NCBI GenBank assembly: GCA_000165425.1
Contig: CT868061.1
Span: 124,001 to 188,000, forward strand
Length of the DNA: 64,000 nt
From: Paramecium tetraurelia
Taxonomy: Eukaryota
Direction: 5' to 3'
Position numbers and translations under genes: made by a program. Below, piece after piece: positions 4,167-64,000 of this stretch; within the stretch, counting starts at the first letter, position 1; each line of letters begins with the position of its first letter. The notes under the pieces are model-generated. The model saw nothing but the letters and a program-made list of their open reading frames with translations, was not told the DNA's origin and did not search any database.

Positions 4167-6133
4167 TCATAAATCCCTTTTTTTATTCATTATAGCATCA
4201 ATTGAACTAAATAATTTTATATATATTACTTCTTTAAATCTTACTGTTTTTTTTCAAAATCAGTAATTTTTTTATCAGCTTTATATTAATTTTCTTATAA
4301 CCATTTAGAACTAGAATCAAGTAATAATTTTATTTCTGACAATTCAGCTTAACTTATTTAATTTTTATATTTTGATTGCTAATTTATACCAATTAATTTA
4401 CTTATATTTCAATTAGGAATTCCTTTTAATAAAGTTTTAAATTATTTATTACGTCCATTCTTTCTAAATAAATTTTTTCCTCTTTCTCACTTTCATCCTT
4501 TTATTTCTAAATTTCTTCTTTTGATTGTCTCATCAAATTTGTTATGACAATTTCATACTAGCTTAAACTTTTTGTATCTAAATCAAAAGCTGTAACTTAA
4601 AGTAATCCATTGTAATTTAGGGAAAAAGTAACTTAAATTTCAGGTATCCCTCTTTTAGCAATTTTAATGCCTTTTAATTCAAATAGTCCAATTTATTAAT
4701 TTAATATTGTAAATTTATTTTCTCCCTAAAAAACTTGAATTATGATCCTAGTTTAATAATCCAGAACTGAAGTGTATATTTTTGACAAAGTTAATGGATA
4801 TTTAGACATTTTAGGTATAATTATACTCATCATCCCTCCTAAAGTTTCAACGCCATAACTTATCGTAGTTTTCATGATTTCTGCAAATTGATATTTTTAA
4901 TATTCTTCTTTAGTAAGTGAATTTGCATAAATAGCAGCCCCAACGCAAACTAACTCATCTTATATTCTATCTTTAATGATCTTGCTGTTTACAAATATTG
5001 TTTCAATAATTTATTAGATTTTAGGAATTCTACTACTTCCTCCTACTAGAATAACTTCATCTATATCTATTATCTATAGATTAGAGATTTTAAATGTTGA
5101 ATTTATTACATCAATAACATCATTAAAATGTTCTTCATTCAACTCTTCAAATTTTTCCCTTGTAAGACTATAATTAAAATCATATCCTTCAATCAAATTC
5201 GATATTTTTATATGTGCAATTTTCTAGGAAGAAAGAGTTTCTTTAGCTCTTTAAGCTTCTGTTTTTAATACTTAAATTGCTTTTTTATTATGAATTATGT
5301 CAATTCTAGTAGATTTATATATATAATCAATGAAGTAGTTGACTATAGTCTAATCAAAATCTTCTCCTCCTAAATTTGGTTATGCCTAATGTTCTAAATC
5401 TTCAAATTTGTCCTTTGTTGCTTTCACAACTGTAATATCTAAAGTGCCACCCCCAAAATCAAATACAAAAATTATTTTTTTCTACGTTAAATTATCTATG
5501 CCATAAGCAATTGCAGCAGCCTTTGGTTCACTAATAATTCTAACAACATTAAAGCCGGCAATTTCTGCAATGTCTATAGTAGCTTCTTTTTAAGCATTAT
5601 TAAAACTGATAGGAACTGTTATAACTAAATTTTTAATTGGAACCTCTAAATAAAAGTGAGCTATTTGCTTCAAATATACTAAAACCTTTGCTTGAATATA
5701 ATCAATGCTAAATAACTTATTACTCTCATTTCCATACTAATCTACTTTAATACAAGTTCTATTATTTTCTTCAGCTATAGAATATGCCTATCTTTTCTTC
5801 ATCTTCTACACACTAGGATCAAAATAACTATGATTACTTCATAGCTTACTTTCTTCCAGTTAATCTTTTGAGATCATAAAACGTATTATTCGGATTAATA
5901 ATGGCCTATTCTTTAGCATCTTCCCCTACTATAAATTCATCATTTGATAAAGCCACAACTGTAGGTGTTGTTTTAGATCCAAATTTATTTGCAAGTACTT
6001 CAACTTTATCATCTCTTTAAATGCAAACACTTGAGTAAGTAGTCCCTAAATCAATTCCAATAACAGGATAATCATAAAGTTTGTCATCCGCATGAATAAT
6101 TGAAAAGAATACTCCTAAAAAAAAAATTACCAT
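4167..6133 (-). CDS. HSP70: Divergent HSP70-family protein with signal peptide (ER/BiP-like), copy A
   Basis: [15 protein letters not shown] leader, [54 protein letters not shown]; three micro-introns; ends MNKKRDL-TGA. Confidence 0.92.
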
Positions 6134-12810: not shown

Positions 12811-13886
12811 GCTGGGAAGCTAAAATGATTAATTAAACATCATATTAATATAAGAGAAGTTCTAGATTAATAAATTATCATGAACAAAACAATTAGATTT
12901 TTTCAATTATTCAATAGGTGATTCTAAGAAAATATGTAAGATTGGTTTAATTTAGTTGTTATATTGACTTCACAAATAATATTATTGTTTCGAAATTAGT
13001 GTATATAAACTATTTCTAATCATATGGTGAACAGTTTTATTAAGCCTAATTTCAATTCAAATATCTTACATATATTTTATGAATGTAAAAAATTCTTAAG
13101 GCCAATTAATTTGCATAGTAGTATAATAATATGCACTTCAAATTTGAAGTGATAAGTAAAAAAAATAAAGCTGTATACAGGGATTTAACAATCGTTAATA
13201 TTTCTTTTTGTTATCCCTTATGAAGACTAGCAAAATTTAAATATTAAAAATTACACAATAATTTTGAAAAGGATACTTTTAATTTCTAAATTCAAATATA
13301 TAAATTCGAATTGAAGAATTGTGAGATACTGATTTTTTTTATTATTCTTATCATCCAATTTAGCGTTAACCATCTTGTTTATAATGCCTATAGAAAAAAA
13401 ACATTGATATTAATGAGCTAATATATTCACTAATTTAGCTGATTTTAAAATAAATTGAATGCTAAATTCCATAAAGCACAAATACATTTTTAATCGATTT
13501 ACATAAAAATCTTAATAATTTTTCTACAATATTGCATTATGTAGAATAAAGTTATCCATAAATTATTTAATAATATATTTTTCTTAAATATATAAAGATC
13601 AGTATGATGAAGGTATAATGATTACAATTTTTACAAATTGACATCTAAATTAAAAACAATAATAAATTTTGTAGATATTATCAAAAGGGAATTAATTTGC
13701 AAATTAGAAGAATATAGACCCCAATTTAGTTTCCTTATTTGTTAGGTTTTTATTGAGCAATTTTTCAATCAATGTGATTTTGCAGATATAACAAGAATAA
13801 AAAAAAGTAGAGAAAGCTTAGTCTCAGAAATAATCAGCAATTCATTATATAAAAGAAAATGAATTTACTAATTAATATTAATTTAA

Positions 13887-16627
13887 ATGATCACCAATCA
13901 ATTATTCAATCCATAATTAGGATCAAAATAATTTGCTGTTCCAAGATAAGAAAACAGAGCATGCTGTTTTTACCCACGTAGATTACTTATCTGTTATGAT
14001 TTTATAAAAAGAATTCCAATACCTCTAAAAGCAGTTCATTATTTTTTAAAGGTTTAATCTGGTTTTCTTATAGTGGAATTAAAATAAACCTATTCAACTT
14101 AAAGTTATAATGAACCAATAGAATTAGAATATTTATTTTCAATTAATAAAAATGCAGCTGTGACTAAAATGATTGTTGAATTAGGAGACACAAAAGTTTA
14201 TGGGATAGTTAAGGAAAAAGAGGAGGCTAGATAGGAATATGAAGAAGGAATAAAGTAGGGCAAGACAATGGCATACAGTGAGCAAGATGAAGAATTTCCT
14301 GAAATAAAAAGAGTTAAAATTGGAGCCCTTGCTCCAAAAAAAGAATTAAATATCACATTTGAATACATATAACCTTTGGATGTTTTTTTAAATAAGTTAT
14401 GGAAAGTAGAAGTTTAGCCAATGGTTGATGAAAATTATTTTAGCCTTAATAAATAATAGTAGAGAACTTAAAATCTATATTTTGAAAGACTGAGCAGATA
14501 CATTCAGAAATTTGTTCAGATAGATTAATTTGTATACAACTTCAAGCAAGATATTAGTGTATCCATAGATATCGGGTCTCCAATCACATATTATAAATGT
14601 CCAACTCATAAAATTTTAAGCGGAAATGCGAAAAATGAATACGCTAAGGAATAAATTAGTTAGGAAAATTTAAAGAAATTATATCTTATGTTAGAGGATA
14701 CACCATCTAATTTTATTCCAACAAAATAATTTACACTATTATTTTCAAGCGATGACGTAAATCTCCCTCGGGCGTTCTTAAGTCATACTAATAATGATGC
14801 TTTATTCGCATAAAAATATTGTGCTACATTGACATTTATTCCAAAGTTTAATTAAACAACTTTGGATGATGCATATTCACAGTACTTGGAAGAATTAAAT
14901 ATTGCAGAGAATCAAGCAATTAATAGAGGAACTTACTTATTCTTCATCGACAGAAGTGGATCAATGTCTGGAGGCAGAATAAAGAAAGCAAAATAGTCTT
15001 TAATTTTATTTTTGAGAAGTCTACCCGATAATTGTAGGTTCAACATCATTTCATTCGGAACAATGTTTAGATCTTTATGGTCGGATTCTAAGTAATATTC
15101 CCAAGATACATTGGATGAGGCTATCAAACATGTGAATGCAATGGAGGCAAATATGCAGGGGACGGAAATATTTAAACCATTTTAAGATGTTATCTATAAT
15201 AATCAATATGGCAAGTCAAAAACAACTACATTAAATATATTCTTGCTTACAGATGGAGAAGTTGATGTTTTCCCAATAATAGATTTGGTAAAGAGGAACA
15301 ATAAAGCAGAAACTAGAGTATACACTTTAGGAATTGGAGAAGGATGCAGCCAATATTTAATTAAGAATTTGGCGGATGTAGGAAATGGCAAATTTTAATT
15401 TGTAGCAGACGACGAGGATATAAATGCCAAAGTTATTGATTTGTTAGAAGATTCAATGACTCCTTATTTGCAAGGGTTTAACCTTGAATCAAATATTTCA
15501 AATATTGCTCAAATAATTCCAAATCCAGAATCAATTGTGTGTTTAAAGAAGAACTAAGAATTAACAATTTAAGTGTTATTTTCCCTTGAGCAGGTTACTG
15601 ATAATTTACAGCTAACTTTAAGTTGCTTTGATCCGTAAGAATAAAAACCAATTAAATATTCAGTTTCATTAAATATAAATAATTCTTAAGAAAATGAATA
15701 TTTTCATAAATTGGCTTCGCACAAATTTATCACATATTATGAAAACAGTCTAAACTATGGCGAAAATCACGTTAATTTTATCAAAATCAACAAGGATACA
15801 ATAGATGATTAGGATATCATCAACTCATCAGTAACACATTAGATATTAAGTTCTAAAACTGCATTTGTATGTGAAGTCTGTGACTTAGAAGATCAATTCA
15901 AATAGTAGATGAAATAAAAAGTATAAATCACATAAATTAAACAAAACTAATCGGTAGATTAACAGTTGATTGGTCTCCAAAGATTGGTACCTTGCTCATC
16001 AAATTTATATCGTCCAACAAGCTCTAAGGGATGTAGATAGATGTAATCTCAGCTTTCTTCATAACCCTAAATTTAGTATAGGCAAAAATGTTAAGAGGAG
16101 AAAAATCCTATTTAAATTTAATTCCAAAATGGCTGCTGATTTAAGAACAAGAAGATATGAAAAGGATGATAAACTGAATAGTTTATAGAAGGAGTGCAAT
16201 TAAGAAATGTCCTATAAATCAAAGAAATAGACACAAAATCTGATGGAAGAACAAAGAGCATTTCCAGTGAGAAATTAAAGAGAAGAAGAAAATTGTTAAA
16301 TTGATTAAATTTAATTAATTCTAGGGTTAGATTAAAAAAATGGAATATGACTAGTTGATTTCTTATGCCAAAGCTGACGGTGGATTCTTATTTGATGAAT
16401 AAGTTGAAAAGCAAATAAATTTTGAAGGGTGGAAGAATGAGGAAAGCTACCCATAGAATATCTGGCTTACTTTACTTGCTTTACTCTATTTGGATCAATA
16501 TTGTTCTTAAAATAGAAAGTCATGGCAACTAGTGTATTAAAAGGGAATATAATTCCTATAGAGAAATGGAGTTTCTTATAAGTAGTTGAAGGAATAATTA
16601 CTAAAGAATATTAAACAACAAATTTGA
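13887..16627 (+). CDS. VIT + von Willebrand factor A domain protein (VWA5A-like)
   Basis: VIT-like PIELEYLF...GIVKEKEEARQEYEEG...IGALAPK; vWA MIDAS FFIDRSGSMSG, FNIISFG, IFLLTDG, VYTLGIG; C-terminal LISYAKADGGF...WLTLLALLYL. Frame changes at ~16130-16330 are unresolved (introns or errors). Confidence 0.88.
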
Positions 16628-24718: not shown

Positions 24719-26698
24719 ATGTTATTTTTTTTCTTGGGATTATTTTCAATTACTTAAGCAACTGAAGAATTATATGATTATCCTATTATTGGAATTGATT
24801 TAGGAACAACTTACTCAAGTGTTTGCATTTTTAGAGATGATAAAGTTGAAATTATTCCAAATGAATATGGATTTAAATCAACCCCTACGGTTGTTGCTTT
24901 TAATGGCACTTTCTTAATTGGAGAAGAAGCTAAAGAATAGGGAATTATTAACCCATAGAATACATTTTATGATATCAAAAGATTAACTGGAAGAACGTAA
25001 GCTATGAATTAATTATAGATATCTTGATCCAAATGTAAACAGGGTTAAGAAAGGTTTACCCTTTACTATAATGCAAGAAAATGATAAAATTTGTATTAAA
25101 GTATCTTAGCCTAGAAATAAGAGTAATAAGATATTTAACATTGATTATATTCAAGCAAAGGTTTTAACAAAATTGAAGAATATAGCTAGTTCTTATTTAG
25201 GAGTTCCAGTAAAAAATGCCGTCATATCAATTCCTATTGGATTTAATGATATTTAAAAATAAGCCACTATAGACATTGCAGAAATTGCAGGCTTAAAAGT
25301 TGTTAGACTTATTAGTGAGCCAAATGCTGCTGTAATTGCTTATGGTAGGGACTATGTAACAGAAAAAACGAACATTTTTGTTTTTGATTTTGGGGGTGGC
25401 ACTTTAGATATTGCAGCAACGATAGTAACAAAACAAAAATTTGAAGAAATTGATAATTCATCAGAAATGAATTTAGGAGGAGAAGATTTTGATTTCAATG
25501 TTGTCAAATATCTCGTCGATTAAATATACAATTCTACTGGAATGAACTTAACTGATCATAAAAAAGCAAATTAAGCATTAAAAATAGAGGCTTAAAAAGC
25601 TAAAGAAACTCTTTCTTCATAGGAAATAGCTCATATAAGAATATCAAATTTGATTGAAGGATATGATTTTTAATATAATCTTACAAGGGAAAAATTTGAA
25701 GAGGTGAATCAAGACCTTTTTGATAGGGTTATTTCTACAATAAATTCAACATTTATAGTCTCTGAAACGTAAATAGAAGATATAGATGAAGTTATTCTAG
25801 TAGGAGGAAGTAGTAGAATTCCAAAAGTCTAAGAAATTGTTGAGAAAAGATTCGTTCACAGCAAGATCATTAAAGATAGAATATAAGATGAATTGGTTTG
25901 TATTGGAGCTGCTATTTTAGCAAATTCACTCACTAAATAATTAGAAAAACAATATCGGTTTGTAGAAATCAAGAGGACCGCAATAAGCTATGGTGTTGAA
26001 ACCGATAAAGAGGATATGAACATAATTATACCTAGATTGTCTAGATATCCATTAGTTTTGTCAAGATTTTACACTACTATCGAAGATTATTAAACTGGAA
26101 TCTCAATTAATATTTTTTAGGGAGAAAGTGAGTTTACAGAATATAATGAAAAAATTGGAAATTTTAAATTAAGTGGTATTCAAAAAGCCACAAAAGGGGT
26201 ACCTGAAATTGAAATAACTTTTGCACTAAATTAGAATGGAATGCTTACAGCTACTGCCTTTGATTTAAATACAAAAAGCTCAAGCTAATTAGCCATTCAA
26301 ATAAAAAATAAGAAGAGACTTACATAAGAAGATATTGATAACCTTAGGAAAGAGAATGAGTAAGAAGAAAAATTAGATAGAGAGAAGATTTAAACAATAA
26401 GTAAGTTAAAAAAATATCATATGTAATTTCTAAATGATATAAAAGTAACATTTAATGAATATACTTTAGAAATCCAAATATAAATATGCATTAGGTGAGT
26501 CGCAATTATACGAAATAAAAGAAATTCTCAATACTAGTTCTAAATGGCTAGAAGATAATAGATATAAGCTTTAAACAACAACTCAAGACTTTTAAAATGA
26601 ACTGCAAAATCTTAAGAAGTAAGATTTAAAAATTATTTAGTTCATTGGATAAAATCCTGAATAGATAATAACTAAGAGACTCAAACCAAGACTTATGA
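24719..26698 (+). CDS. HSP70: Divergent HSP70-family protein with signal peptide (ER/BiP-like), copy B
   Basis: [14 protein letters not shown] leader, [54 protein letters not shown]; the same three intron positions as copy A; ends RDSNQDL-TGA. Confidence 0.92.
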
Positions 26699-32585: not shown

Positions 32586-35382
32586 TCATAATCTTTACTT
32601 CCCTTAGGCTTACTTTAATAGATGCAACAATGTTTCTTGCCGACGACTCTTTCGTTTCTTTGACTATCTCTAGAATATCATCCGTTTCTCCTGGAACTAC
32701 GAAAAGGATTAACAACATCATACTTTAGCCACCACTTATGAGATGTTGTTATGACTATGATAATTGCTGAATTCACAAACTCTCTCGAATTGCTAAAAGA
32801 TATCTATGTATTATCCCATAATCTTATCCTAATCTTCTTCGTCATCTTCAGAACTATCATCTAACTTTAATTTTACTGATTTTCTTCTCATTACTTAGTT
32901 TATTTATAATGAGGGTACTTACAATACCTATTAATATCCTTGCTCATTCACTACACATAAGGACTCATTCCCTCCTCCTCTCTTCAAAACCTTCTCATAT
33001 ACAGGCACTTCCTCTTCAGGCAACTCTGCCGAAGATCCATAATTTATAGACAACTTTGGATTATTCTTCAGTCCTGCTGGATTTAGATATTAGTTATTCT
33101 GCGGCTAACAAAACCGAAAAGTCCTAGGAGATGATTCATCAATTGAGAGTTGAATCCTTTAGGATAAAGACGATTTTCCTTGTGTGTTCATCTGCTAGGT
33201 CTGAAGATTAGTTGGAATCTGATTGAAAGTGAATTGATTTCCAAAATGAATGCTATGTTGCTATTATAATTCCCTTATCTCTTCTATCTAAACAAGATCT
33301 TCATTTTTCATCATATAATTGAGCACACTTTCCAGAACAATGAAATGATGTTTCAATGCATACATCTTCCTTGTGTGATTATGTCTAATGTATCGAGGAG
33401 TTCTATCAACAGGAGTGAACTTTCTGTAATTGTATAAAGTCTTAATCCTATTGGGTATGCCAAATAAAAATGGACAGGTGTTTGTAAAATGAGAATCGCT
33501 TTAGCATGTATTACATTTAATTTAAATAGCCTTTAAATTTAGATTTTATGTTATGTCATCTGTTATCTATTAGAGTATCTCCTAAAAGGGATAGATTTCA
33601 ATATATATACATAATCGGAAGGGTGATCCTTGAAGACAGTGTGCAATTAATCTCTTGAGATCTGGAGAACTTTCGTTGTCTTAGAGGCTACGGCATCAAA
33701 AGAGTAGGATCTTTTGGAGAAGAAATCCAATTGCCCAATAAAGCACGGATTACTTATTTTCTATAACAATCTGGGCTAATCATTGAGAGTTAGTACTAGT
33801 TTGATCTCTCCTGTTACGAGGATAAATAATTAAGATGATTTATTATTCCTTCTGAATAGATAATCGTCAGATTGAATGTATTTCTCTTCCAGATACATAC
33901 ATAGTTTATTCAACAAAGGTTAACTGAAATTCTTAAAAAAGGATAACTAATTTAATATTTTAGCATTGACATCCACAATCATCTGATCTTTCAAACTTTT
34001 AGGTATCAAATCTGCGAATTATATTACTTTTTGAGAGGGTTTGCTCCATAAATACTCAAAATATCTTCTAAACTTAATTTAAAGATCATCAGACACATTC
34101 TAACTTCTTAGGTATCTATTCAATTGATTCATGTTATTCTTTAATTGAACTGATTGTTTTGAGAAGTCTTAGAATATGCCTCCAATATTATTTACAGTGT
34201 ATGCAAATGTTGCAGATGAAATCATAGTCATGAAGATTACAAAGATCCTTTCAGTCAAATTCACAGGAGTTATATCTCCGTATCCAATTGTTGTCATTGT
34301 AACAATACTCCAATAAAATGAGACTACGTATCTATCCAACCAAGATTCATTCTACAACTAGGCCACCTTCAACCAAGTCTTGCCTTCATGATGACCCCAT
34401 TCACCCCATTGTCCTATTATATGCCAAATACAGGCTGAAAAGTGAGCTACTAGAATCATAAACGATCTAGTGCATATTTATATGCATACATCATTTTAAA
34501 TAAATCGAAGAGTGCTGTTTGTCTGCTTGACAATTCTAAACGATTAAAAAGAGACGAGAATAAACTAGACAACTAGAATACTTTCAAAACTATCACAAAA
34601 TCAAAGTATCTAAAGTCAAATTGCTGGCCTATGAAGAATGGAACAACCAAAAACAAATCAATTAAAAATCCTATCTAATATTAATATCAGTTGACCTTAT
34701 ATGCAATAAAATTTGACAATCTTGGTTCTGTTAGTAATCAGTATTCCTTTGTTATAGATGCAAGTGTTGAATTTTAGGACGATTTCCAAGAGAAATGAGT
34801 AGACAGGCAATTATTCAAAAAAGAACTCCTTGCTTTTTAAAGGAAAATCCACAATTTCTGGGAATGAGATGCGCAAGGACACATAAAACACATTGATCGT
34901 CACAATAACAATCAGATAAATATTCCATATGATTATGACTGTGTCGTCTGGTTTTAATAGCCATTTTCGAGCATTACTACTTAAGAATTTGCTTTGATGT
35001 TCTGCCATTATTATTTAAATTTACATAGTATACAAGAAAACCAGTTGTTTAATTTAAGTAAGATTTACGAGGGCTTATCTCTTGGCAGCAATCCTTGATA
35101 TTTGTAAAAATTATAGTCTGCTGCTTTATCCTTAATTAAATTGAATTCTTGCTTAGTGAAAAGACTCAAATCCTTTCGAGTGATCTATTTAGTGAGTAGA
35201 ACTATGAATCTGGAGACTATAAGTATTATTCTGAATGCTCTGTATTTCCAAATTGGATTCTCGATTCCAAAACTTTGATGTTGAGTCCTTCTTGCCCACA
35301 ATAATACTTTGGAGCTCTTGTTCATATTGGTTTCAAGGGGTTCAGGACAATCCTCATTGTTACTTATTTGACTTACGATCAT
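32586..35382 (-). CDS. Six-TM K+ channel with cyclic-nucleotide-binding domain (EAG/CNG-like)
   Basis: S4-like VLKVFQLSS, HFSACIW, pore SFYWSIVTMTTIGYGDITP, C-linker and cNMP-binding region (FIGQLDFF); several micro-introns. Confidence 0.92.
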
Positions 35383-36275: not shown

Positions 36276-36413
36276 GTTTGTTATCTATTGAATTATTAAT
36301 TAACTTTGATGATGTACTATTTTCACAATTAATAAACTCATATTAAAATTGGATATTGAAGAGAGGTATTTTTAGTTTAAAAATCTTACCAAATATTCCA
36401 ATTTTAATTATTC

Positions 36414-37667
36414 ATGGATTATTAATTACCTTCTATGGCAGACCCATTCACTTGGGTTTCTTATACTATTTTAGGCATTCTGGTAGGCTTATCATAAGCT
36501 GGTGGTATTGGTGGTGGTCCAATTATATCTCCAGTCATGATGGTTTTATTGGGATGTCCAAGTAAAAAGGCAATTTGGAACACTTATATTATGCTCTTGG
36601 GAGGAAGTCTTGGTAATTTCATCAGATTGGGAAAAGAGAGAGTAATCATTTATATTTAATTGTTCTAGACTGCAAATGGAAGTGCTCCATTGATAAATTA
36701 TCAATTGGTTCAAATTACATTGCCTTTATTATTGGCTGGAGCAATTTTGGGAGTTGCAACAGGTAAATGGTTACCAAAACTGCTCATTGTGATCTTTTTG
36801 TTCGGTATATTACTCACGGTCTTTTTAAAAACTAAGAGTTTATACACAAAAACTCGCAGTAAAGAAATGAATGAACATTTAATTCCTGTTGAACTCAAGG
36901 AATTGTCAATATAGAACTAGAGTACCCACTCAAAAGAGTTGAATATAATCAAAGAAAAGGATGGAAGACTCTACCCAACAGAACCACTTACAGAAATCAG
37001 CTTAACTGTGTTAATTATCATAGTTGTTACATTATTAAAAGGGTCAGGAGCAGTACCATCAATTCTCGGAATAGATTATTGTGGTTTAGGTTTCCATTTT
37101 TTGAATATTGTCATATTTGGAATTGCTTGTTATAATGTTTACAGATATAGAAAATTTATATCGAAAGATGAAGAATATAAACAATCTATTGGTTATGATT
37201 TTTCAGATGGTAAAATGAGTGCAGTATTTGATATTACAGTTAAATCAAGTTTATATGCTGGATTTTTGGGTGGACTTGTTGGTCTAGGAGGAGGTGTAGT
37301 ACTGACACCTCTTTGGTTAGAAACTGGAATAAACCCTCCTAGAGCAGCAGCTTCAGCTACATTTACAGTCTTATTTACTTCATCCATCTCAGTTTTTATC
37401 ATTGCTCTTTCTGGAGGATATTAATTTGAAGAATTCATCATTTTAGGGGTAAAATATAATCATATGTTTTAGTTGGTTTCTAGTTTTGGCAGTTATTTGG
37501 TTGCAGGAGTCCTGAAACATATAGTGTAAAAATATCAAAGGGAATCAATTCTAATCTAAGTGCTTTTGGGAGTTATAGCATTTGGATTAATTATACTTCC
37601 ATTTTAATCTATTAAAGATGTTTATTAAAATCCGCTTGGTGCAATTTAATTCGGCCATTTATGCTGA
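36414..37667 (+). CDS. Sulfite exporter TauE/SafE family membrane protein
   Basis: LSQAGGIGGGPIISP, PLINYQL, GFLGGLVGLGGGVVLTP...AAASATFTVLFTSS. Confidence 0.9.
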
Positions 37668-55701: not shown

Positions 55702-57737
55702 ATGCACATTGATCCAACTCAGATGGTCAAGATTTCATTCTAAGCTAGCATTGTGATTTTCATTTCTTTAACATTTGCAGCAATTCTATTTGGTTAACCT
55801 GAAAAGTTGACAAGAGGCTTCGATCCAGATGGTAATTAGCATTATTATAAAAAGGAATTGCATGTGGTTCTGATTTTGGATCTAGAGATTATCCTTACAT
55901 TTATTTTGGCAATCCTACTCCCAATACTTTACATTAAACTGTCTGTGTGAAATCATGTCCTAAGCCAGATCATAAAAACGGCAGTACAAATACAAATCAT
56001 ATCTTTTAGTGCCAAAACAGTTAGATTGCATGCCTAACTCTATTATTCAGTAATGTTAAGCTAAGTTCTCTATAGACCATCCAGAAACTTAATTTTTAAT
56101 ATATGATACCTTCCTTTATAAGGGAAACATTTGTATGCCTCGAAATTTAGCTTATTATGAGGCGATCAAAGAAATATCCACACCTCCTTCTAGATTAAGT
56201 AATACCAGTGACGTCTACAAGAATAAATGGATGCTCCTTATCTTTATACTCGTTGCAGGCGTTGCATCGAAATAATTACTCACATAACTGAAGGCAAATA
56301 CTTAATATAGTGTTTGGGGCTTGACATTTGGACTATTCATTTTTGTGGGAACTTTGGGAGTTATTTTTGTTTCTTAAGCCAGAGATGCTATCGCCAATTC
56401 AATAGAAACTAATTCCATGTCTGCTTTTTAGGTGGATGAAGAATATATTTTGAAAATGAGTAATGTGCCCAATCCTATTAAAATGGTCATCTTATCTTTA
56501 ATTTTTGTAATTCTAACATTTTATGGAGCTTATTTCTTATACAACAATTACGATCGAATCAAAGATCTGTCACAATTATTTGAATAGGTTGAAATATATA
56601 TGGCTGATCATGAATACCTATAAGAAGCATCTTACCCTATGATTTTGGTCCTTAATTTCTTTCTATTCTTAACACTCTATACCATTCTGTATACATTTAT
56701 CAATATTTCTAATAGATCATTAAGAGCTTGTTTCGTGATTGATTTCTAATAGATCGGACCCTTTGAAAAAATCTAAGGAGGTGTTCTCTATTATTTCCAA
56801 ATCTTGATAGCGTTTTTCTTCTTTTGGGGAGTCCAAGTGATCTTTGGAATTAACAACTATATGGTGTCGTCATCTCTGGTGCAGTGGATTCAAGTGGGTT
56901 ACAATCAACACCAAGATGTACAATACAATAGGAATTAAGCTACACTTATTTTAACCAGATACTTTATGCAAGAAGCCTTCTATAACATTGGTAAAATAGC
57001 ATTTGCTTCATTTCTCTTATTGGTATCTCCAGTTAAATTTGTATGCGATGCTATTAAGGATTGGGCTGTCAGAAGGTAAAATTAGAAGTTTAGAAATTTA
57101 CTTACTAAATGTTGCTGTCTGCCCTTCATTCAAATATACAAAAAAACCAGACAAATTGAAGAGGTTGTTTACATTGAATAAGCAATCAATAGGAAGTATT
57201 GCATAACCGTTAATGTCTGTTTTAAATTCATTGAGGACTACTTGGAATTAAGATTAGAGGATTCAAATGCTGCTGAGCTTTTTGAATAACTAAGTACTTT
57301 CATTCATATAAACTTTAGGGAATACTGTAGATTCATTTTTATTGATCATCAAAATATTTATTGCACTACTTTGTGCTATCATTTGTAAGTTTATTTTGAG
57401 TTTCAATTACTTTTCAAATCATATGTACGAAACCAACCTCACTTCTTTGATAGCTGCTATCATAGGATATTATGTTGCATCATTATATTTCTAAATCTAT
57501 TCGATTGTTCTATAAGGTTTGGGTTATATTTATATAAGAACGATGAATATTTGTAAAAAGAACAATGAGAATTATGAAAGGAATTAATAAAAAAGAAGAG
57601 ATACCGCATTTGAAACATTTAAAAATATTTATAAAGTACCTATGTATATCATAACTTTTTAGGATTTTTCGGAAATTATGATTCACTTTGAAAATAAGAT
57701 TAGAAATTAGAAAACCAAAGAATAACTTCCTCATTGA
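55702..57737 (+). CDS. Choline transporter-like (CTL/SLC44) family protein
   Basis: GQPEKLTRGFDPDG|IACG...YPYIYF...VCVKSCP extracellular loop; multiple TMs; FYNIGKIAFASFLI. Confidence 0.85.
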
Positions 57738-58013
57738 TAAAATATATGCTTTTACAATTATATATATTATCAATAAATTTTCTATAATAAATCTGCGTAT
57801 CACTAAAAGTGTAAGCTAATAAATAAGTATCAAGTAAGAATTGGAGTGAGTTAATACCTAAATTATAACTTATTATCTTGAAGAACAAAAACAATTTATT
57901 TTTTCAATAAATTATTTGAAATTCTTAGATCTTATAATATATTTAAAGCATTTATATTGAAAATTATTTTATTATTGTTTAGACATACATCATATTGAAA
58001 ATTAATATAATTA

Positions 58014-60118
58014 ATGAATTCAAAACCGAAAAGTATTTTTGAATGTTTGGATGAACACTTTTAGGAGTTAGATTAAGAAGATGAAGATGAAGAGAATGAA
58101 ATAATGCAGAATGAAAATATTACAAATTATGATTAGGGTCCAGGATAAAAATAAGATAAGTCTAAACATATAGCGAGACCAAAGGATATAATCAAATGGG
58201 AAGATATCAATAAATTAGATGTTTAAGAAGATGATTTGTTTGAAATTTAAGAAGCACCAGAAGAGAGTGTTGTTTCATAAGTCAAAGATAATGAAAATTT
58301 TAATTTCGATTATGAAATACCAGTCCTAATGTTGGATGATGACAGTCAAATAAGTCAAGGAAAAAAAATTAAATTAGCTGGTTTAAATAATTACATTAAA
58401 TCTAAAGAAAAGGAAAGGCAGTAGGTTGAAGAAAATTTTTAAAGAATTGTTTAACAAAAAGCTGAAGAATTAATTCAAGAATAAAAAAAGGAGGAGTTGA
58501 TGAAAAAGATATAAAAGCAAAGTATTCCTTCTAAATTGCAATAAAAAGTCTAATCACTATTTTAATAAGTCGATTATGAAGCCAATCCAATAAAGATAAC
58601 TGCTTAATAAAGTATTACTAATTCAACAAATACCCCTTCTTTAACTAAAAAAAAATAAAATGATAATGAACAAGTGAGTAAATTGAAGGAAGAAATACTG
58701 AATCTCAAAAACCTAATAAATGACTATAAGTTACGCTACAATCAAGATTAGGATTTAATTAAGACTCTTAGAGTAACTATTCAGAAAGGAGACACAAATT
58801 AATCACGTACAAGTTGTTCAACTAAAGCTAGCAAAACAGATGATTTAATAAATGAAAATGAGCAATTGAAATAGGATATGATTACTTTAAAATAGCAACA
58901 TTAAAAAGAAATTGAGTCATTGAAATAGTAATTATCAAGAGTTTAGAAGATATAAGTAGGATGTCAATAAAGATAATAGAAGGATCAAGTAATACCAGAT
59001 AAAACTAAAGAAGAAATTACAAAATTATAGGCAGAAAAAGCCTAACAGGGTTCAGATTTCAGAAATAAATTAAATGAAGCAACTCTAAAAATTTAATAAA
59101 AGGATTAGGAATTAGAAAAATTAAAAAAACAAATTAAGACTATGTAAGAATAAAAAGAATAACCAGATAAATAATAGATCGTAATTGAAGATTTAAAATA
59201 ATAAATATAAAAGCTCAATCAACAGATTGAAGAAATAAAATAGAAGTACTTGTTTGATAATTAACTTAAACTATTATTCCCAATATAATAAGATAATGTT
59301 TTAGCTGTCCTTAATATCTTTTACAAATTAGAAAACACTAAAAATGCAGTCAATTTTATAAAAACTAAATTGAATACTGGATTTACTTATGTTTACTCAA
59401 AAATATACAATGTCTACAAATGGTTTAAATAAATGATTAAATTTAAGTGGACCAAATCAGTTGTGCATCATCCTGATAATTAACAACTTGTAAAAGAAGC
59501 TATTTAAAAAATAAGGACTAATCCCACTGTTTTAGAAACTGAAAATTAAAAATTAACAAAAACATTGATCTAGTTAGGCTAAGAGAACAAGGATCTTTAA
59601 GAAAAGTTATCCTCATTATAAATATAATACAATTAGAAAATTGAAATCTATGGTTAATTAGATGAATTAGTTAGAGTTGATAAAATATAATTAGCAAATC
59701 AATTAATGATGCGTATACTGAAAAAAGAAGCTGAGGATAGAAATAATGAGTAGTAAATAGAATACCCTGAATTATAAATTGTTAAAGTATTCTAATTACA
59801 AATATTTAGAAATATGCTGAGTTGATAATGCAATCAACTCTTCCTCAATATCAAAAGTCGTAATCACCTAAACAGGATAAAAACACTAAGGCTGTTGCAT
59901 CCCTATAAGGAATCAATAATAAATAGGTCTCCATTGCAGTTACAAAATGTGGACACATTGAAAGGCACTAAAAAAGAGATTAAAAGCCTACTAAAGGGTA
60001 ATATTATAATAAATGAATAATAAACTTTTAATTTAATTATTTTTACATTTAATAATGCAAAATATTATTAAAGATAACATTTTCAACTAATGAAATCAAA
60101 TAACGCCTAAAAATTTGA
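58014..60118 (+). CDS. Hypothetical long coiled-coil protein
   Basis: Acidic N-terminus, Q/K/E heptads; in frame after one 23-nt intron at ~59787. Confidence 0.75.
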
Positions 60119-60531
60119 TTTTAATTAATAGATAAAAGAAAACGCTTATTAACAAATTAGTTACTTCAAATCATAATAAGAAGTTAATTTCGGAAAAATT
60201 AATCTTTAGAAACTAGCTTAGAAGAAACAGTTTTCTCTCCCTCCTTATTAGTTTTTAAATTCTAGAAAGCTTTTTCAATAACAGAGTGAAGTGTTATTTA
60301 ATATTATTTTACTTTTGTTTTTTAATTTCTATAATAATTTGAAATGCATATCATAAAATAATTCAATATTTGAAAGAAAGAAAGAAAGAAAAAAAAAGTA
60401 AAATGAAATTTTAAACATGAGGTTAGGATTATTTAACCTTGTTCCATGTTGAATTTATTTTTAACAATGTTAAATAACAATGTAAATAGAATAATGGTGT
60501 GAAATAGTTAATTTTAATATTTGCCAATAAA

Positions 60532-63500
60532 TCAACTACTTTTATGATTGAATGATTTGTAATTAGAATTCTGAAGAAATTATTTTAGAATTTCATATTT
60601 ATCCTGCTTTGAATTTTCGTTCTGATTATATACGGTTGTTTATTCTAAAAAAGATATGAGTAAAACTACCCTTATGCATATGATAATTTTTATTTTCAGG
60701 ATTTTTCTATATTGCAATATCATATTATGCTTATGCTTCAGTAATACGATTTAATTTGATTAGCGTATTTGCTATTTCAAATATATTAATACCTTTATAA
60801 AAATATAGATCAGAACAACTAGGATTTATTAAAATTGCCTAATCATAATATTTTAAAGCTTCTTCCAAAAGATCCATTTAGTGTAATGTAAATGCTAATC
60901 AAGTATTCCTTTTTTATTTACCTTTATTAAAATAAAATTGATAGCACTCAGGATATTTCTAAATAGCTATATCAAAACTTTCTAATGATTGTTCAAAAAG
61001 TTTCATTTTAGCTAGAGCAATTGCTAATAAATATGAAATTGATTATGCCTTTATTGTTGTAAAATTTTGCATTATTTGAATCCCTTTAAATAGCAAGATC
61101 AAAAAATTCTAATGCTTCTTAAAACCTTTGCATTTCTATTAAAGTAGTAGCTTTTTATGAATTTAGGTTAAACGTACCTTTATTTTCATAATATTCTGAA
61201 TTTTCAGGATTCTTCTTTATAGCTAAATCATAAAATTTTAATGCTTCCTCATTTCGATTCTGTTTGGATAAAGTATTAGCTATTCTTAAATAAATAAAAT
61301 AACCTTTATTATGATAGTACTCTGGATTTTCAGGATTTTTCTATATGGCTAAGTCATAATATTATAAAGCTTCTTTAATTTTATTTTAATAGACTAAAAC
61401 ATTTGCTATTAGATTATATATTAGATTATACCCTTATTATGATAAAGCTCTGAGAATTCAGCATCAATACCTATGGCTAAATCAAACTATTATAAGGCTT
61501 CTTAATATTAATCTAATTTGCTTAGCGCAATTCCTTTTTGATAATATATTTGGCAATACCTTTTTTGTTATAAAAGTCAGCATTTTTTTAGTTTCTCTCA
61601 ATTGCATAATTATAATATTTTAATGCTTCATTTAAAGAATTCATATCTTCTAAAGTCATAGCTATCAATAAATATCAAATATTTACCTTTATTATAATAA
61701 AATGTAGCATTTTCTGGATATCTCTAAATCGCATAATTATAATACTCCAAAGCCTCTTCAAAACGATGCAATTTAATTAAAGTATTTGCTGCAAAAATAT
61801 ATTACATATATGACAAAACCTTTCTGATTATAAAATAATGGATTTTCTGGGTTTTTTTAAATAGCAATTTCAATTTATTCTAAGGCTTCTGAAAAACGTT
61901 ACAATTTTTTTAAAACAATAGCTATTATTATTACTATATATAAACATTTATTATAGTAATTTTCTGGACTTTGAGTATTTATTTTAATAGCATAATCATA
62001 ATATTCTAATGCTTCTTAATACCGATTCAATTTAAAATTAAAGCACTTGCTTACATATGTATATTTATTTTTTAATACCTTTGTTACTGAAAAATTCCGA
62101 ATTTTCTGGGGCTTTTTTTATCGCTTTTTCAAAATATATTATTGCCTCATCAATTCTATTTAGATCTTCTAGAGCAAAAGCTATTAAATAATATATAAAT
62201 ATAATTGATGCCTTTTTCGTTATAATGATCAGGATTATCAGAGTTAATTTAAATAGCAATATCAATCTATTCCAAAGCTTCTTCTTAACGGTTCAAGGCG
62301 ATTAAAGTAATTGCTTTTAAATAATTTTGAGTGACAATTTATACCTTTCTATGAATAATAATCAGACATTGTAGGATTTTTTGAAATAGCTAAATCACAA
62401 TTCTGTAATGTTTCTTCAAACCGATTCAATTTAAATAAAGCCATAGCTGCTCATTAAGTCTTTCATTTTACCTTTACAATAATATAAATCGGGATGTTAA
62501 GGATTTATTTTGATAGCTAAATCAAAATGCTCTAATGCTTTTTCAAGTTGGTTTAAATGGGCTAAATACTTGCTATACAATTTTCAACTTTTTTTACCTT
62601 TAATGTAATAATGGTCATAAAATTCAGGGTTTTTTTAAATAGAATAATCACAATTTTCTAATGCCTCTTCATAACGGTTCATTTGACATAAAGTGAAAGC
62701 TAAAATATTGTTTTTCATTACCTTTGTAATAATACTACTCCGAGTTTTCAGGATTTTTTTCAATTCCTTAATCATAATATTCTAATGCTTCTTAATAACG
62801 ATTCAATAAATGTAATGCAAATCCTATTCAATTATATTTTGATTCTTACCTTTTTATCTATAATTATCACCATTTTATGGATTTTTTTAAATAGCGCATT
62901 CAGACTGTTCTAATGATTCCTCAAACCTATTCATTTTTTGTAAAGTGTTTGCTACCGAATTTATAGCTTATTACCTTAAACTTTAAAATATATTTCTTTC
63001 TCTGGATTTCTCTAAATAGCAGCAACCACATTTTTTAATGCCTATTCATACTCTTTGCATTCAAATAAAGTATTTGCTTATTAATTTATAACTGTTATAC
63101 CTTTATTATTATAATATTCTGAATTTTCGGGATCAATTGAAAGAGCTTTGTCATAATGATTTTATGCTTCTTCAAATCTTTTTAATTAGGCTAAGGTGTT
63201 TGCTGTAGAAGAATGACTGAATCAATTCATACCTTTATTGTTATAATAATCCGCATATTTTGGATTTATTTTTATTGCTTAATCATAACATTTTAATGCT
63301 TCGTCTAAACGATTCAATTCATGTAGAACACTTGCTGTTCAATAATAATGGATTTATTATACCTTTATTATTGTAATAATCTGCATTATTATGATCTTTC
63401 GAAATTGCCAAATCATAATATTCTAATGCCTCCCATAGACGACTCATTTCATGTAGAGTAATTGCTTATGCTTTATGATTTTTTTATACCTTTGTTATAA

Positions 63501-64000
63501 TAGTATCCAGCATTTTACGGATTTTTTTTTATAGCATAATCAAAAAATGTTAACGCCTCATGAGGCCTATCTAAGTCAATTAATGTGTTTGCTTAAATTA
63601 AAAAATTGTAATTTCACCTTTGTTGTTGTAATAATCTGGATTTTCAGGATCTTTTTGGATAGCATAATTGTTATATTTTAGTGCTTCATGAAAACGATTT
63701 ACTTTTTTTAAGGCAATTGCTACATAATATGTTATCTTAATTTATACATTTTTCATTGTAATAAGTTGAGTTAGTAGGATCTCTCTGAATGGCTTTATCA
63801 TAATATTGTAATGCTTCTTCAAATCGATTAGAATCAAATAAAATGTTAGCTTTTAATTATAAATTTAATTAAACCTTTATTGTAATAATAATCTGGAGGA
63901 TGAAGATCATTCTTACTTGCATCAGCATTTTTACTCTATTATACTGCCTTCACTTGATTAATTTAGGCTGATTATTTTTAAGTGATATTTTGCACTATCT
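60532..64000 (-). CDS. TPR-repeat protein with 25 one-repeat-per-exon modules (5' end beyond window)
   Basis: Each exon encodes a 34-aa TPR (consensus A-N-T-L-x-x-L-N-R-F-E-E-A-L-E-Y-Y-D-x-A-I-Q-K-N-P-E-N-x-D-Y-Y-N-N-K). Exons begin at 60670, 60793, 60922, 61049 ... 63618, 63748; 23 are exactly 102 nt, one is 101 nt and one is 104 nt. Confidence 0.93.
60670..63874 (-). repeat. Diverged ~128-bp tandem array (102-nt exon + 21-31-nt intron), 25 units
   Basis: Regular AC/CTTT(A) donor and G/CT acceptor complements on the + strand about every 128 bp. Confidence 0.93.

What the first reader, a model, noticed from the sequence alone, without database searches (positions are those of the whole stretch)
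60532..64000. Modular TPR gene: 25 symmetric exons, one 34-aa TPR each, all introns at the same phase-1 position
Seen: every TPR sits on its own exon (23 of 25 exactly 102 nt), flanked by micro-introns that interrupt the codon after YYNNK at the same phase. Introns are divergent, scaffold residues are conserved, and other positions vary between repeats. Established: TPR arrays are ligand-binding solenoids; symmetric same-phase exons can be duplicated, deleted, swapped or skipped without a frameshift; Tetrahymena has analogous LRR genes built from 90-nt exons. Inference: this may be a Paramecium diversity-generating recognition-receptor family (innate-immune-like or self/non-self) that evolves by exon-unit shuffling and possibly alternative splicing or somatic rearrangement. 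TPR-with-intron genes may already be known in Paramecium; I cannot check novelty.
Basis: partly seen in the sequence, partly recalled or inferred. Interest (0 to 1): 0.85.

Follow-up and report, generated by a model that had tools for sequence, protein, structure and literature searches.

The report
Paramecium TPR gene, one repeat per exon
This is an intact Paramecium gene for a long TPR-repeat protein in which every 34-residue repeat sits on its own 102-base exon; the layout is real and striking, but it looks like an old, stable member of a TPR gene family already noted in Paramecium, not an immune-type diversity generator.

Summary
Observation confirmed. A minus-strand gene runs from 60532 past 64000; the window cuts off its 5' end. 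Under the ciliate code it has 25 internal exons separated by 26 introns of 21-31 nt. Every intron is phase 1, between TPR positions 7 (K) and 8 (A/G/S). In the window 23 exons are 102 nt, one is 101 and one is 104. An independent DNA contig (run X12) is identical apart from two homopolymer indels at exactly those two exons, so there all 25 are 102 nt and the frame is intact.

Pfam calls the repeats canonical TPR. The units are old: mean exon identity is 0.62 with no neighbour effect, and intron cores are no more alike than shuffled ones. Units resemble each other no more than units of paralogues.

Published P. tetraurelia data report "TPR coding exons", each with a germline IES near its 5' end (PMC6771405). 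The IES spacing I read there (122-131 bp) matches this gene's 123-133 bp module. Tetrahymena's 90-bp LRR exon arrays (PMC6564038) are a true analogue.

I found nothing supporting an immune-receptor role, exon skipping or somatic repeat-number change. Splicing was not shown directly. Verdict: new member of a known kind, moderate-to-low interest.

The parts
60532..64000 (-). TPR-array gene, 3' part. The 5' end lies beyond the window.
63875..64000 (-). Partial first visible exon: a non-TPR linker ending in PPDYYYNK. The frame is open to the window edge.
   Evidence: no Pfam family; no database protein shares its words.
63748..63849 (-). TPR exon 1, 102 nt. The exon-1/exon-2 junction codon is T|CA (Ser): exon 1 ends in T before the intron whose 5' site is at 63747.
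63618..63719 (-). TPR exon 2, 102 nt.
63490..63591 (-). TPR exon 3, 102 nt.
63363..63464 (-). TPR exon 4, 102 nt.
63233..63334 (-). TPR exon 5, 102 nt.
63101..63202 (-). TPR exon 6, 102 nt.
   Evidence: (TPR_1 E=5.7e-07 for this exon alone).
62975..63076 (-). TPR exon 7, 102 nt. This is the most degenerate unit.
62850..62951 (-). TPR exon 8, 102 nt.
62722..62823 (-). TPR exon 9, 102 nt.
62598..62699 (-). TPR exon 10, 102 nt.
62472..62572 (-). TPR exon 11: 101 nt in the window, with one base missing from a homopolymer in codon 3. It is 102 nt in the contig of run X12 (an A is put in behind 62563).
62345..62446 (-). TPR exon 12, 102 nt.
62212..62313 (-). TPR exon 13, 102 nt.
62181..62211 (-). 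GC-AG intron, 31 nt.
   Evidence: The GC is present in the X12 contig too (no other letters reported).
62079..62180 (-). TPR exon 14, 102 nt.
61946..62049 (-). TPR exon 15: 104 nt in the window, with two extra bases in a homopolymer. It is 102 nt in the contig of run X12 (2 letters left out at 62034). The exon-15/exon-16 junction codon is T|CT (Ser).
61820..61921 (-). TPR exon 16, 102 nt.
61687..61788 (-). TPR exon 17, 102 nt.
61560..61661 (-). TPR exon 18, 102 nt.
61432..61533 (-). TPR exon 19, 102 nt.
61304..61405 (-). TPR exon 20, 102 nt.
61178..61279 (-). TPR exon 21, 102 nt.
61049..61150 (-). TPR exon 22, 102 nt.
61024..61048 (-). GC-AG intron, 25 nt.
60922..61023 (-). TPR exon 23, 102 nt.
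60793..60894 (-). TPR exon 24, 102 nt.
60670..60771 (-). TPR exon 25, 102 nt.
60532..60644 (-). Last exon, 113 nt: a 37-residue non-TPR tail and the TGA stop.
   Evidence: no Pfam family.

Best explanation
This is an intact, ordinary member of the Paramecium TPR-array gene family. It encodes a continuous solenoid of at least 26 canonical, consensus-like TPRs followed by a 37-residue tail. The N-terminal part lies outside the window.

The one-repeat-per-exon layout is best explained as follows (inferred). An ancestral module of a 102-nt exon plus a micro-intron, sitting in phase 1 inside the codon for TPR position 8, was amplified by tandem duplication, for instance by unequal crossing-over. 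That is why all 26 introns sit at the homologous site.

The array then aged. Exon length stayed fixed because a TPR must be 34 residues. Intron sequence randomised, and intron length drifted within the 21-31 nt that Paramecium splicing tolerates.

The transcript is probably spliced constitutively into one long frame (inferred). The protein most likely acts as a protein-binding scaffold (inferred from the TPR fold); its partner is unknown.

By analogy with published P. tetraurelia TPR genes, each module probably also carries a short germline IES near the exon's 5' end that is removed from the somatic DNA seen here. This is inferred and was not tested.
For: - Gene model: 25 internal exons and 26 phase-1 introns at one codon position.
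- Both frame-breaking indels of the window are absent from an otherwise identical DNA contig, giving 25 of 25 exons at 102 nt.
- All 14 DNA-like runs hold 0.98 of the words. That is the share expected if each lacks just these two indel sites (about 1.8% of words). Only X12 was laid.
- Coding signal: 0 in-frame TGA in 759 codons against 10 and 60 in the other frames.
- Fold: TPR_1 E=5e-17 and TPR_2 E=5e-15 on a three-exon read-through. The closest solved chains are engineered or consensus TPR superhelices (9qhb E=1.2e-16, 8bu0 E=1.7e-12) and the OGT TPR domain (1w3b E=9.5e-08).
- Age of the array: exon nt identity is 0.62 on average (0.45-0.745) and flat across lags 1-12. Third-codon-position identity is 0.54. 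Intron cores are 0.576 identical against 0.574 when shuffled.
- Family: the closest named relatives are P. tetraurelia and P. octaurelia TPR proteins at 47-59% identity. Their sequences carry 7-9-residue inserts beginning with G right after K7, such as GTNIYLQLI and GSKFALFI. These look like this gene's own in-frame intron read-throughs, GYFIYLRI and GITVINQQ.
- Family period: in PMC6771405 Table S2, 26-30-bp IESs in 7 TPR genes lie mostly 122-131 bp apart. This gene's module is 123-133 bp. The Fig. [quoted passage not shown]
Against: - No splice junction was seen directly. The three RNA or RNA-like runs that were laid gave only 18-24-nt scraps. This is probably because spliced contigs fail the 95% likeness rule.
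- Two introns start with GC, not GT. If they are not spliced, the frame breaks after unit 13.
- No database protein matches this gene closely. The best identity is 52-59%, and nothing shares words with the first visible exon. Yet a neighbouring gene has a 94%-identical P. octaurelia counterpart. So either the gene is poorly annotated in relatives or it evolves faster than its neighbours.
- The N-terminal domain is unseen, so the function is inferred from the repeat array alone.
- Module duplication, as opposed to parallel intron gain at an AAG|G proto-splice site, is argued from parsimony and not shown.
Confidence: 0.78

Rival explanations
1. One reading: a diversity-generating recognition receptor (immune-like or self/non-self). 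Its repertoire would change through exon-unit shuffling, alternative splicing or somatic rearrangement of the symmetric exons.
For: - Symmetric 1-1 exons allow frame-neutral gain, loss or skipping.
- The most variable repeat positions include TPR positions 12, 5, 2 and 13 of helix A (entropy 2.4-3.1 bits). From memory, these face the ligand groove in TPR proteins generally.
- Some paralogues hold units 85% identical, so unit duplication has happened in the family.
- PMC6771405 reports that TPR genes are prone to temperature-dependent IES retention, a form of somatic variation.
- No close orthologue was found although a neighbouring gene is 94% conserved.
Against: - Units in this gene are uniformly old: nt identity 0.62, maximum 0.745, no lag structure.
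- Introns are saturated.
- Within-gene unit identity (0.44) does not exceed between-gene identity (0.44-0.50), so there is no sign of recent exchange or concerted evolution.
- The one DNA contig laid carries the same 25-unit array.
- Two paralogue N-termini have no Pfam domain: no NTPase, death-fold, signal or transmembrane family.
- Variable helix-A positions are a generic TPR property.
- Paralogues listed in Table S2 of PMC6771405 have low TPM, 0-0.8 for the periodic ones.
- No paper linking Paramecium TPR genes to NLR-type immunity turned up.
Confidence: 0.07
2. A decaying pseudogene: a dead paralogue whose frame only looks open because the ciliate code has a single stop codon.
For: In the window, two exons are frame-shifted (101 and 104 nt), two introns have GC 5' sites, and two junction codons give Ser instead of Ala/Gly. 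No annotated protein matches it.
Against: - Both frameshifts vanish in the independent contig of run X12.
- There are 0 TGA in 759 in-frame codons against 10 and 60 in the other frames.
- Scaffold residues are kept in all units (L11 in 23 of 23, K7 in 22 of 23, I28 in 22 of 23).
- Second codon positions are more conserved than third positions (0.72 against 0.54).
Confidence: 0.05
3. The identical intron positions arose by repeated independent intron gain at a recurring proto-splice site (AAG|G at K7/G8) in a pre-existing intron-less TPR array, not by duplication of an exon-intron module.
For: The exon end and next-exon start, AAAG|GC, fit the classical proto-splice motif (recalled from memory). 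The introns share no detectable sequence beyond the splice signals.
Against: This needs 26 independent gains at exactly the same phase with none elsewhere in the repeat. Paralogues show inserts at the same site. In the published family the germline IESs are periodic too, which points to duplication of whole modules.
Confidence: 0.08

Closest known systems
IES-rich TPR-motif genes of Paramecium tetraurelia (Vitali, Hagen and Catania 2019, Genome Res, PMC6771405; example PTET.51.1.G1500001)
   Same: Same genus and same domain. The paper speaks of 'TPR coding exons' in arrays (Fig. 8E legend). In Table S2 rows, IES points in 7 TPR genes are mostly 122-131 bp apart, matching the 123-133-bp exon-plus-intron module here. 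The closest named proteins to this gene are P. tetraurelia and P. octaurelia TPR proteins.
   Different: The passages I read describe IES density and retention. They do not state the exact 102-nt exon length or the uniform phase-1 intron site. Figures are not held and one supplementary file could not be searched, so the paper may show more than I saw. The germline IESs of this gene could not be examined, and its identity to any named gene was not established.
[quoted passage not shown] 2019, PLoS Biol, PMC6564038)
   Same: Both are tandem arrays of exons of one exact length, each carrying one solenoid repeat unit and separated by introns of a single phase. Both are explained by clonal expansion of an exon-intron unit, in an oligohymenophorean ciliate.
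   Different: This gene has TPR repeats, 102 nt and phase 1; Tetrahymena has LRR repeats, 90 bp and phase 2. Tetrahymena's young arrays keep nucleotide-level similarity, have long introns and lie next to a LINE-like element. This array is old, with 21-31-nt introns and no repeat element seen. That paper states that P. tetraurelia LRR genes lack such a peak and does not discuss TPR exon lengths.
Consensus/engineered TPR superhelices (PDB 8bu0, 9qhb) and the TPR domain of O-GlcNAc transferase (PDB 1w3b)
   Same: These are the best sequence matches among solved structures: canonical 34-residue TPR_1-type repeats in an uninterrupted array. UniRef's name for paralogue P0003 begins 'UDP-N-acetylglucosamine-' (truncated in the listing).
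   Different: No glycosyltransferase domain is present. Only 37 residues without a Pfam match follow the last repeat. The resemblance concerns the repeat fold only.
TPR-sensor STAND/NLR-like proteins of fungi and bacteria (recalled from memory; no paper read)
   Same: A long TPR array with variable helix-A positions.
   Different: No NTPase domain was seen; the 5' end is missing here and no Pfam domain was found in two paralogue N-termini. The highly similar, recently exchanged repeats that I recall as typical of such sensors are absent.

Membership tests
Tetratricopeptide repeat (Pfam TPR_1 PF00515 / TPR_2 PF07719) | 34-residue helix-turn-helix repeat that passes the Pfam gathering score. | tested here: met
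   A three-exon read-through scores TPR_1 at 61.4 bits (cut-off 27.8, E=5e-17) and TPR_2 at 54.8 bits. The single exon 63101-63200 scores TPR_1 at 29.5 bits.
Tetratricopeptide repeat (Pfam TPR_1 PF00515 / TPR_2 PF07719) | Conserved scaffold positions (small residue at 8, 20 and 27; large hydrophobic at 4, 11 and 24; Pro at 32). The position list is recalled from memory. | tested here: met
   In the 23 in-frame units: A/G/S8 in 23, L11 in 23, A20 in 20, Y/F24 in 16, A27 in 21, P32 in 18, Y4 in 20.
Paramecium IES-rich TPR-exon genes (PMC6771405) | Tandem TPR-coding exons with a period of about 128 bp. | tested here: met
   The module here is 123-133 bp. Published IES spacing is mostly 122-131 bp in 7 genes, from the roughly 46 of 270 table rows I read in a file that was cut when stored.
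Paramecium IES-rich TPR-exon genes (PMC6771405) | A short germline IES near the 5' end of each TPR exon. | not testable with these tools
   No germline sequence is available. The only hint is a TA at exon nt 10-11 in 23 of 23 units, and codon usage (Leu TTA/CTA) already explains that.
Tetrahymena 90-bp-exon LRR arrays (PMC6564038) | Exons of exactly 90 bp that encode LRRs. | tested here: not met
   The exons are 102 nt and encode TPRs. This is an analogue, not a member.
Tetrahymena 90-bp-exon LRR arrays (PMC6564038) | Extreme phase-2 intron bias. | tested here: not met
   All 26 introns are phase 1.
NLR/STAND-type receptors with TPR sensor | A central NB-ARC/NACHT NTPase domain upstream of the repeats. 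| tested here: inconclusive
   The 5' part of the gene lies outside the window. The N-terminal 285 and 316 residues of paralogues P0003 and P0009 have no Pfam family at E<=0.1.
NLR/STAND-type receptors with TPR sensor | Highly similar repeats with localised hypervariable sites, a sign of recent exchange (recalled from memory). | tested here: not met
   Mean unit identity is 0.62 at the nucleotide level and 0.44 at the amino-acid level, with no near-identical pair.
O-GlcNAc transferase (UniRef name of paralogue P0003) | A C-terminal GT41 catalytic domain after the TPRs. | tested here: not met
   Only 37 residues follow the last TPR, and they have no Pfam match.

The most novel reading that the evidence does not exclude
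Paramecium TPR genes may be a second, independent ciliate case of clonal arrays of exactly equal, same-phase exons (102 nt, phase 1), alongside Tetrahymena's 90-bp phase-2 LRR arrays. They would add a twist: every module is interrupted twice, by a micro-intron removed from RNA and by a micro-IES removed from DNA. Incomplete removal of either could then give somatic, environment-dependent variants of the solenoid, which the cell might exploit as a tunable binding repertoire.
Probability: 0.15. Interest if true: 0.6.

Novelty: new member of a known kind. Interest (0 to 1): 0.33.

Why it matters
The finding gives a clean example, to the base, of how a solenoid protein grows by copying an exon-intron module: 25 of 25 exons equal in length and 26 of 26 introns at one codon position.

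It also suggests that the 'unique' Tetrahymena LRR exon arrays have a TPR counterpart in Paramecium. A genome-wide look at 102-nt phase-1 exons, together with the known per-exon IESs, could be a tidy comparative study of module duplication, intron ageing and IES ageing on one clock.

It does not open a route to a ciliate immune system on present evidence.

Practically, the window's assembly carries two homopolymer indels that break this gene. The frameshifted and read-through stretches seen in annotated paralogues suggest that gene models of this family are often wrong.

Tried and rejected
- Whole genome: none is held.
- RNA evidence: runs X18, X19 and X20 were laid but gave only 18-24-nt pieces and no joints. 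No statement on splicing, exon skipping or expression follows from that. Runs X17-X19 have word shares of 0.56 and X20 has 0.51. These happen to equal the 0.554 expected if only exon-internal 31-mers are present. I treat this as a coincidence-level hint, not evidence.
All were chance matches; my estimate of pattern specificity was too optimistic.
- Search with the 41-residue first visible exon: no candidate.
I did not pursue it.
- Whole-library phmmer: 9409 hits at E<=1e-3. The top ten I looked up mix bacterial and archaeal long TPR arrays with Paramecium proteins. This shows only that the repeats are consensus-like; no orthologue emerged.
- Earlier scan notes: nothing relevant.
- Alternative models to rescue the two odd exons inside the window: a 36-nt intron with a 90-nt exon keeps the frame for exon 11, but nothing rescues exon 15. 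Both became moot.
- Invariant TA at exon nt 10-11 as an IES mark: Leu codon usage accounts for it.
- Literature: four searches found no paper describing a 102-nt or phase-1 TPR exon class in Paramecium or linking these genes to NLR-type immunity. A search on GC-AG introns in Paramecium gave nothing specific, judged from the listing only.
Full report
WHAT IS THERE

The feature lies on the minus strand. Read with the ciliate nuclear code (TAA/TAG = Gln), the three frames of 64000 to 60400 show TPR-like 34-mers hopping between frames. A chain of candidate introns gives a clean model:
- a partial first exon (63875-64000), open to the window edge with no ATG;
- 25 internal exons;
- a 113-nt last exon ending in TGA at 60532-60534.

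There are 26 introns of 21-31 nt (mean 26.1); 24 are GT-AG and 2 are GC-AG. Every intron is phase 1 and splits the codon that follows an almost invariant Lys. In the 23 in-frame units the split codon reads Ala in 19, Gly in 2 and Ser in 2.

In TPR numbering the intron lies between positions 7 and 8. Each exon therefore carries positions 8-34 of one repeat and 1-7 of the next. It is a permuted unit, not a structural repeat, although copying or removing one exon still preserves the array.

Coding is not in doubt. There are 38 in-frame TAA/TAG codons. There are 0 TGA in 759 in-frame codons against 10 of 782 and 60 of 759 in the other frames. Identity between units is higher at second codon positions (0.72) than at third positions (0.54).

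The regularity is far beyond chance. A splice-plus-102-nt pattern matches 13 times, all inside the gene, against 0.00 expected in 100 shuffles. A profile built from the units finds 25 units in the gene and nothing credible elsewhere in the 64 kb.

THE TWO ODD EXONS

In the window, exon 11 is 101 nt and exon 15 is 104 nt, and both break the frame. Comparison with sister units shows a missing base in a short homopolymer in codon 3 of exon 11, and two extra bases in a homopolymer in exon 15.

A 12,777-nt DNA contig of run X12 (depth 73) was laid on 60400-64000. It differs from the window at exactly these two places and nowhere else: 2 letters left out at 62034 and an A put in behind 62563. In that contig all 25 internal exons are 102 nt and the frame runs through.

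All 14 DNA-like runs listed hold 0.98 of the sampled words. That is what two indel sites would cost (about 1.8%). Only X12 was laid, and the tool warns that it may be the same source organism. I conclude that the frameshifts are assembly errors or private variants, and that the gene is intact.

WHAT IT ENCODES

Pfam calls the repeats canonical TPR: TPR_1 E=5e-17 and TPR_2 E=5e-15 on a three-exon in-frame read-through, and TPR_1 E=5.7e-07 on one exon alone. The first visible exon and the 37-residue tail match nothing.

The closest solved chains are engineered or consensus TPR superhelices and the TPR domain of O-GlcNAc transferase. No catalytic domain follows the array.

A whole-library phmmer search returns 9409 hits at E<=1e-3. 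The top ten I looked up mix long bacterial and archaeal TPR arrays with P. tetraurelia proteins, so the repeats are consensus-like. The closest named relatives are P. tetraurelia and P. octaurelia TPR proteins at 47-59% identity. No protein matches this gene itself.

A neighbouring VIT-VWA gene is 94% identical to a P. octaurelia protein. The organism is therefore an aurelia-complex Paramecium.

HOW OLD IS THE ARRAY

The 23 in-frame exons are 0.62 identical on average (range 0.45-0.745; random expectation 0.31). Identity is flat from lag 1 to lag 12. The best pairs are units 20/21 and 4/5.

Intron cores are no more alike than shuffled introns (0.576 against 0.574). At the protein level, units of this gene are 0.44 identical to each other and 0.44-0.50 identical to units of six paralogous proteins. 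Some paralogues (P0003, P0091) contain units 85% identical.

So unit duplication has happened in the family, but this array is ancient. It shows no sign of recent duplication, conversion or exchange.

WHAT IS ALREADY KNOWN

Vitali et al. 2019 (PMC6771405; passages, the Fig. 8 legend and parts of Table S2 read) report the following for P. tetraurelia TPR-motif genes:
- they are among the most IES-dense genes in the genome, up to 10 IES/kb and 1135 IESs in all;
- these genes are prone to IES retention at 18 and 32 degrees C;
- their function is unknown.

In the Table S2 rows I read (about 46 of 270 matching rows, in a file that was cut when stored), 26-30-bp IESs in seven TPR genes lie mostly 122-131 bp apart. 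One example is G1190163, with points at 251054, 251183, 251311, 251439, 251568, 251697 and 251825. That period equals the exon-plus-intron module here, 123-133 bp.

Arnaiz et al. [quoted passage not shown]

Annotated paralogue proteins carry 7-9-residue inserts beginning with G right after K7. These look like this gene's own intron read-throughs. I read them as unspliced 3n introns at the same site; this is an inference.

Xiong et al. 2019 (PMC6564038, passages read) describe the Tetrahymena analogue: tens of thousands of exactly 90-bp LRR exons flanked by phase-2 introns, explained by clonal exon-intron expansion. They state that they know of no comparable uniformity elsewhere.

My four literature searches found no paper that states the 102-nt, phase-1 rule for Paramecium TPR genes or links them to NLR-type immunity. 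Figures are not held and one supplementary file of PMC6771405 was not searchable, so this may have been shown without my seeing it.

INTERPRETATION

The best reading is an intact, old member of a known Paramecium TPR family, built by tandem duplication of an exon-intron (and probably IES) module, constitutively spliced, acting as a protein-binding solenoid.

- no recent exchange between units;
- the same array in the independent contig;
- no signalling domain in paralogue N-termini;
- generic TPR variability at helix-A positions.

What remains open:
- direct proof of splicing, including the two GC-AG introns;
- the unseen N-terminus;
- why no close orthologue is annotated in a sister species;
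- the germline structure of the gene.

Noticed in passing
window 62034 and 62563: The window differs from an otherwise identical independent DNA contig (run X12) by two homopolymer-length indels, and both break this gene's frame. All 14 DNA-like runs share the same 0.98 word share. These are likely assembly errors, which suggests other genes of this assembly may carry similar homopolymer frameshifts.
   Followed up: partly
window 62181-62211 and 61024-61048 (minus strand): Two of 26 introns begin with GC instead of GT, and the X12 contig confirms this. Whether Paramecium splices them is unknown to me. If it does not, the frame breaks after unit 13.
   Followed up: partly
exon nt 10-11 of every 102-nt exon (for example 61778-61779, minus strand): A TA dinucleotide (the Leu-11 codon is always TTA or CTA) is present in 23 of 23 in-frame units. 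Both window-specific indels lie within about 6 nt of it. It is a candidate site for the per-exon germline IES reported in P. tetraurelia TPR genes, but codon usage alone can explain it.
   Followed up: partly
proteins P0003, P0009, P0017, P0077 and P0091 (P. tetraurelia records): Annotated paralogues contain out-of-frame stretches and 7-9-residue inserts between TPR units. These look like unspliced micro-introns, so public gene models of this family appear to be frequently wrong.
   Followed up: partly
window 4201-5838 (-) and 25008-26495 (+): There are two Hsp70-family open frames about 20 kb apart on opposite strands (Pfam HSP70 E about 1e-110 each). They are clearly paralogous to each other.
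   Followed up: no
window 13863-16136 (+): A VIT plus von Willebrand A domain gene. Its best match is a P. octaurelia protein at 94% identity, followed by P. pentaurelia at 81% and P. primaurelia at 74%. P. tetraurelia entries reach only 59-67%.
   Followed up: partly
window 57999-59822 (+): Directly beside the TPR gene lies a 608-codon open frame with 66 TAA/TAG (Gln) codons and no Pfam family. It looks like a Gln/Lys/Glu-rich coiled-coil protein.
   Followed up: no
window 33356-34600 (-), 36360-37664 (+), 55874-57565 (+): Ordinary neighbours: a cyclic-nucleotide-binding ion channel, a TauE/SafE-like membrane protein and a choline-transporter-like protein. There is no second TPR gene in the window.
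   Followed up: no
PMC6771405 Table S2 (P. tetraurelia scaffolds 100, 104 and 119): Periodic-IES TPR genes occur as adjacent pairs or triplets (G1000001/2, G1040080/81, G1190163/4/5). These may be tandem paralogues or single long genes split by annotation.
   Followed up: no
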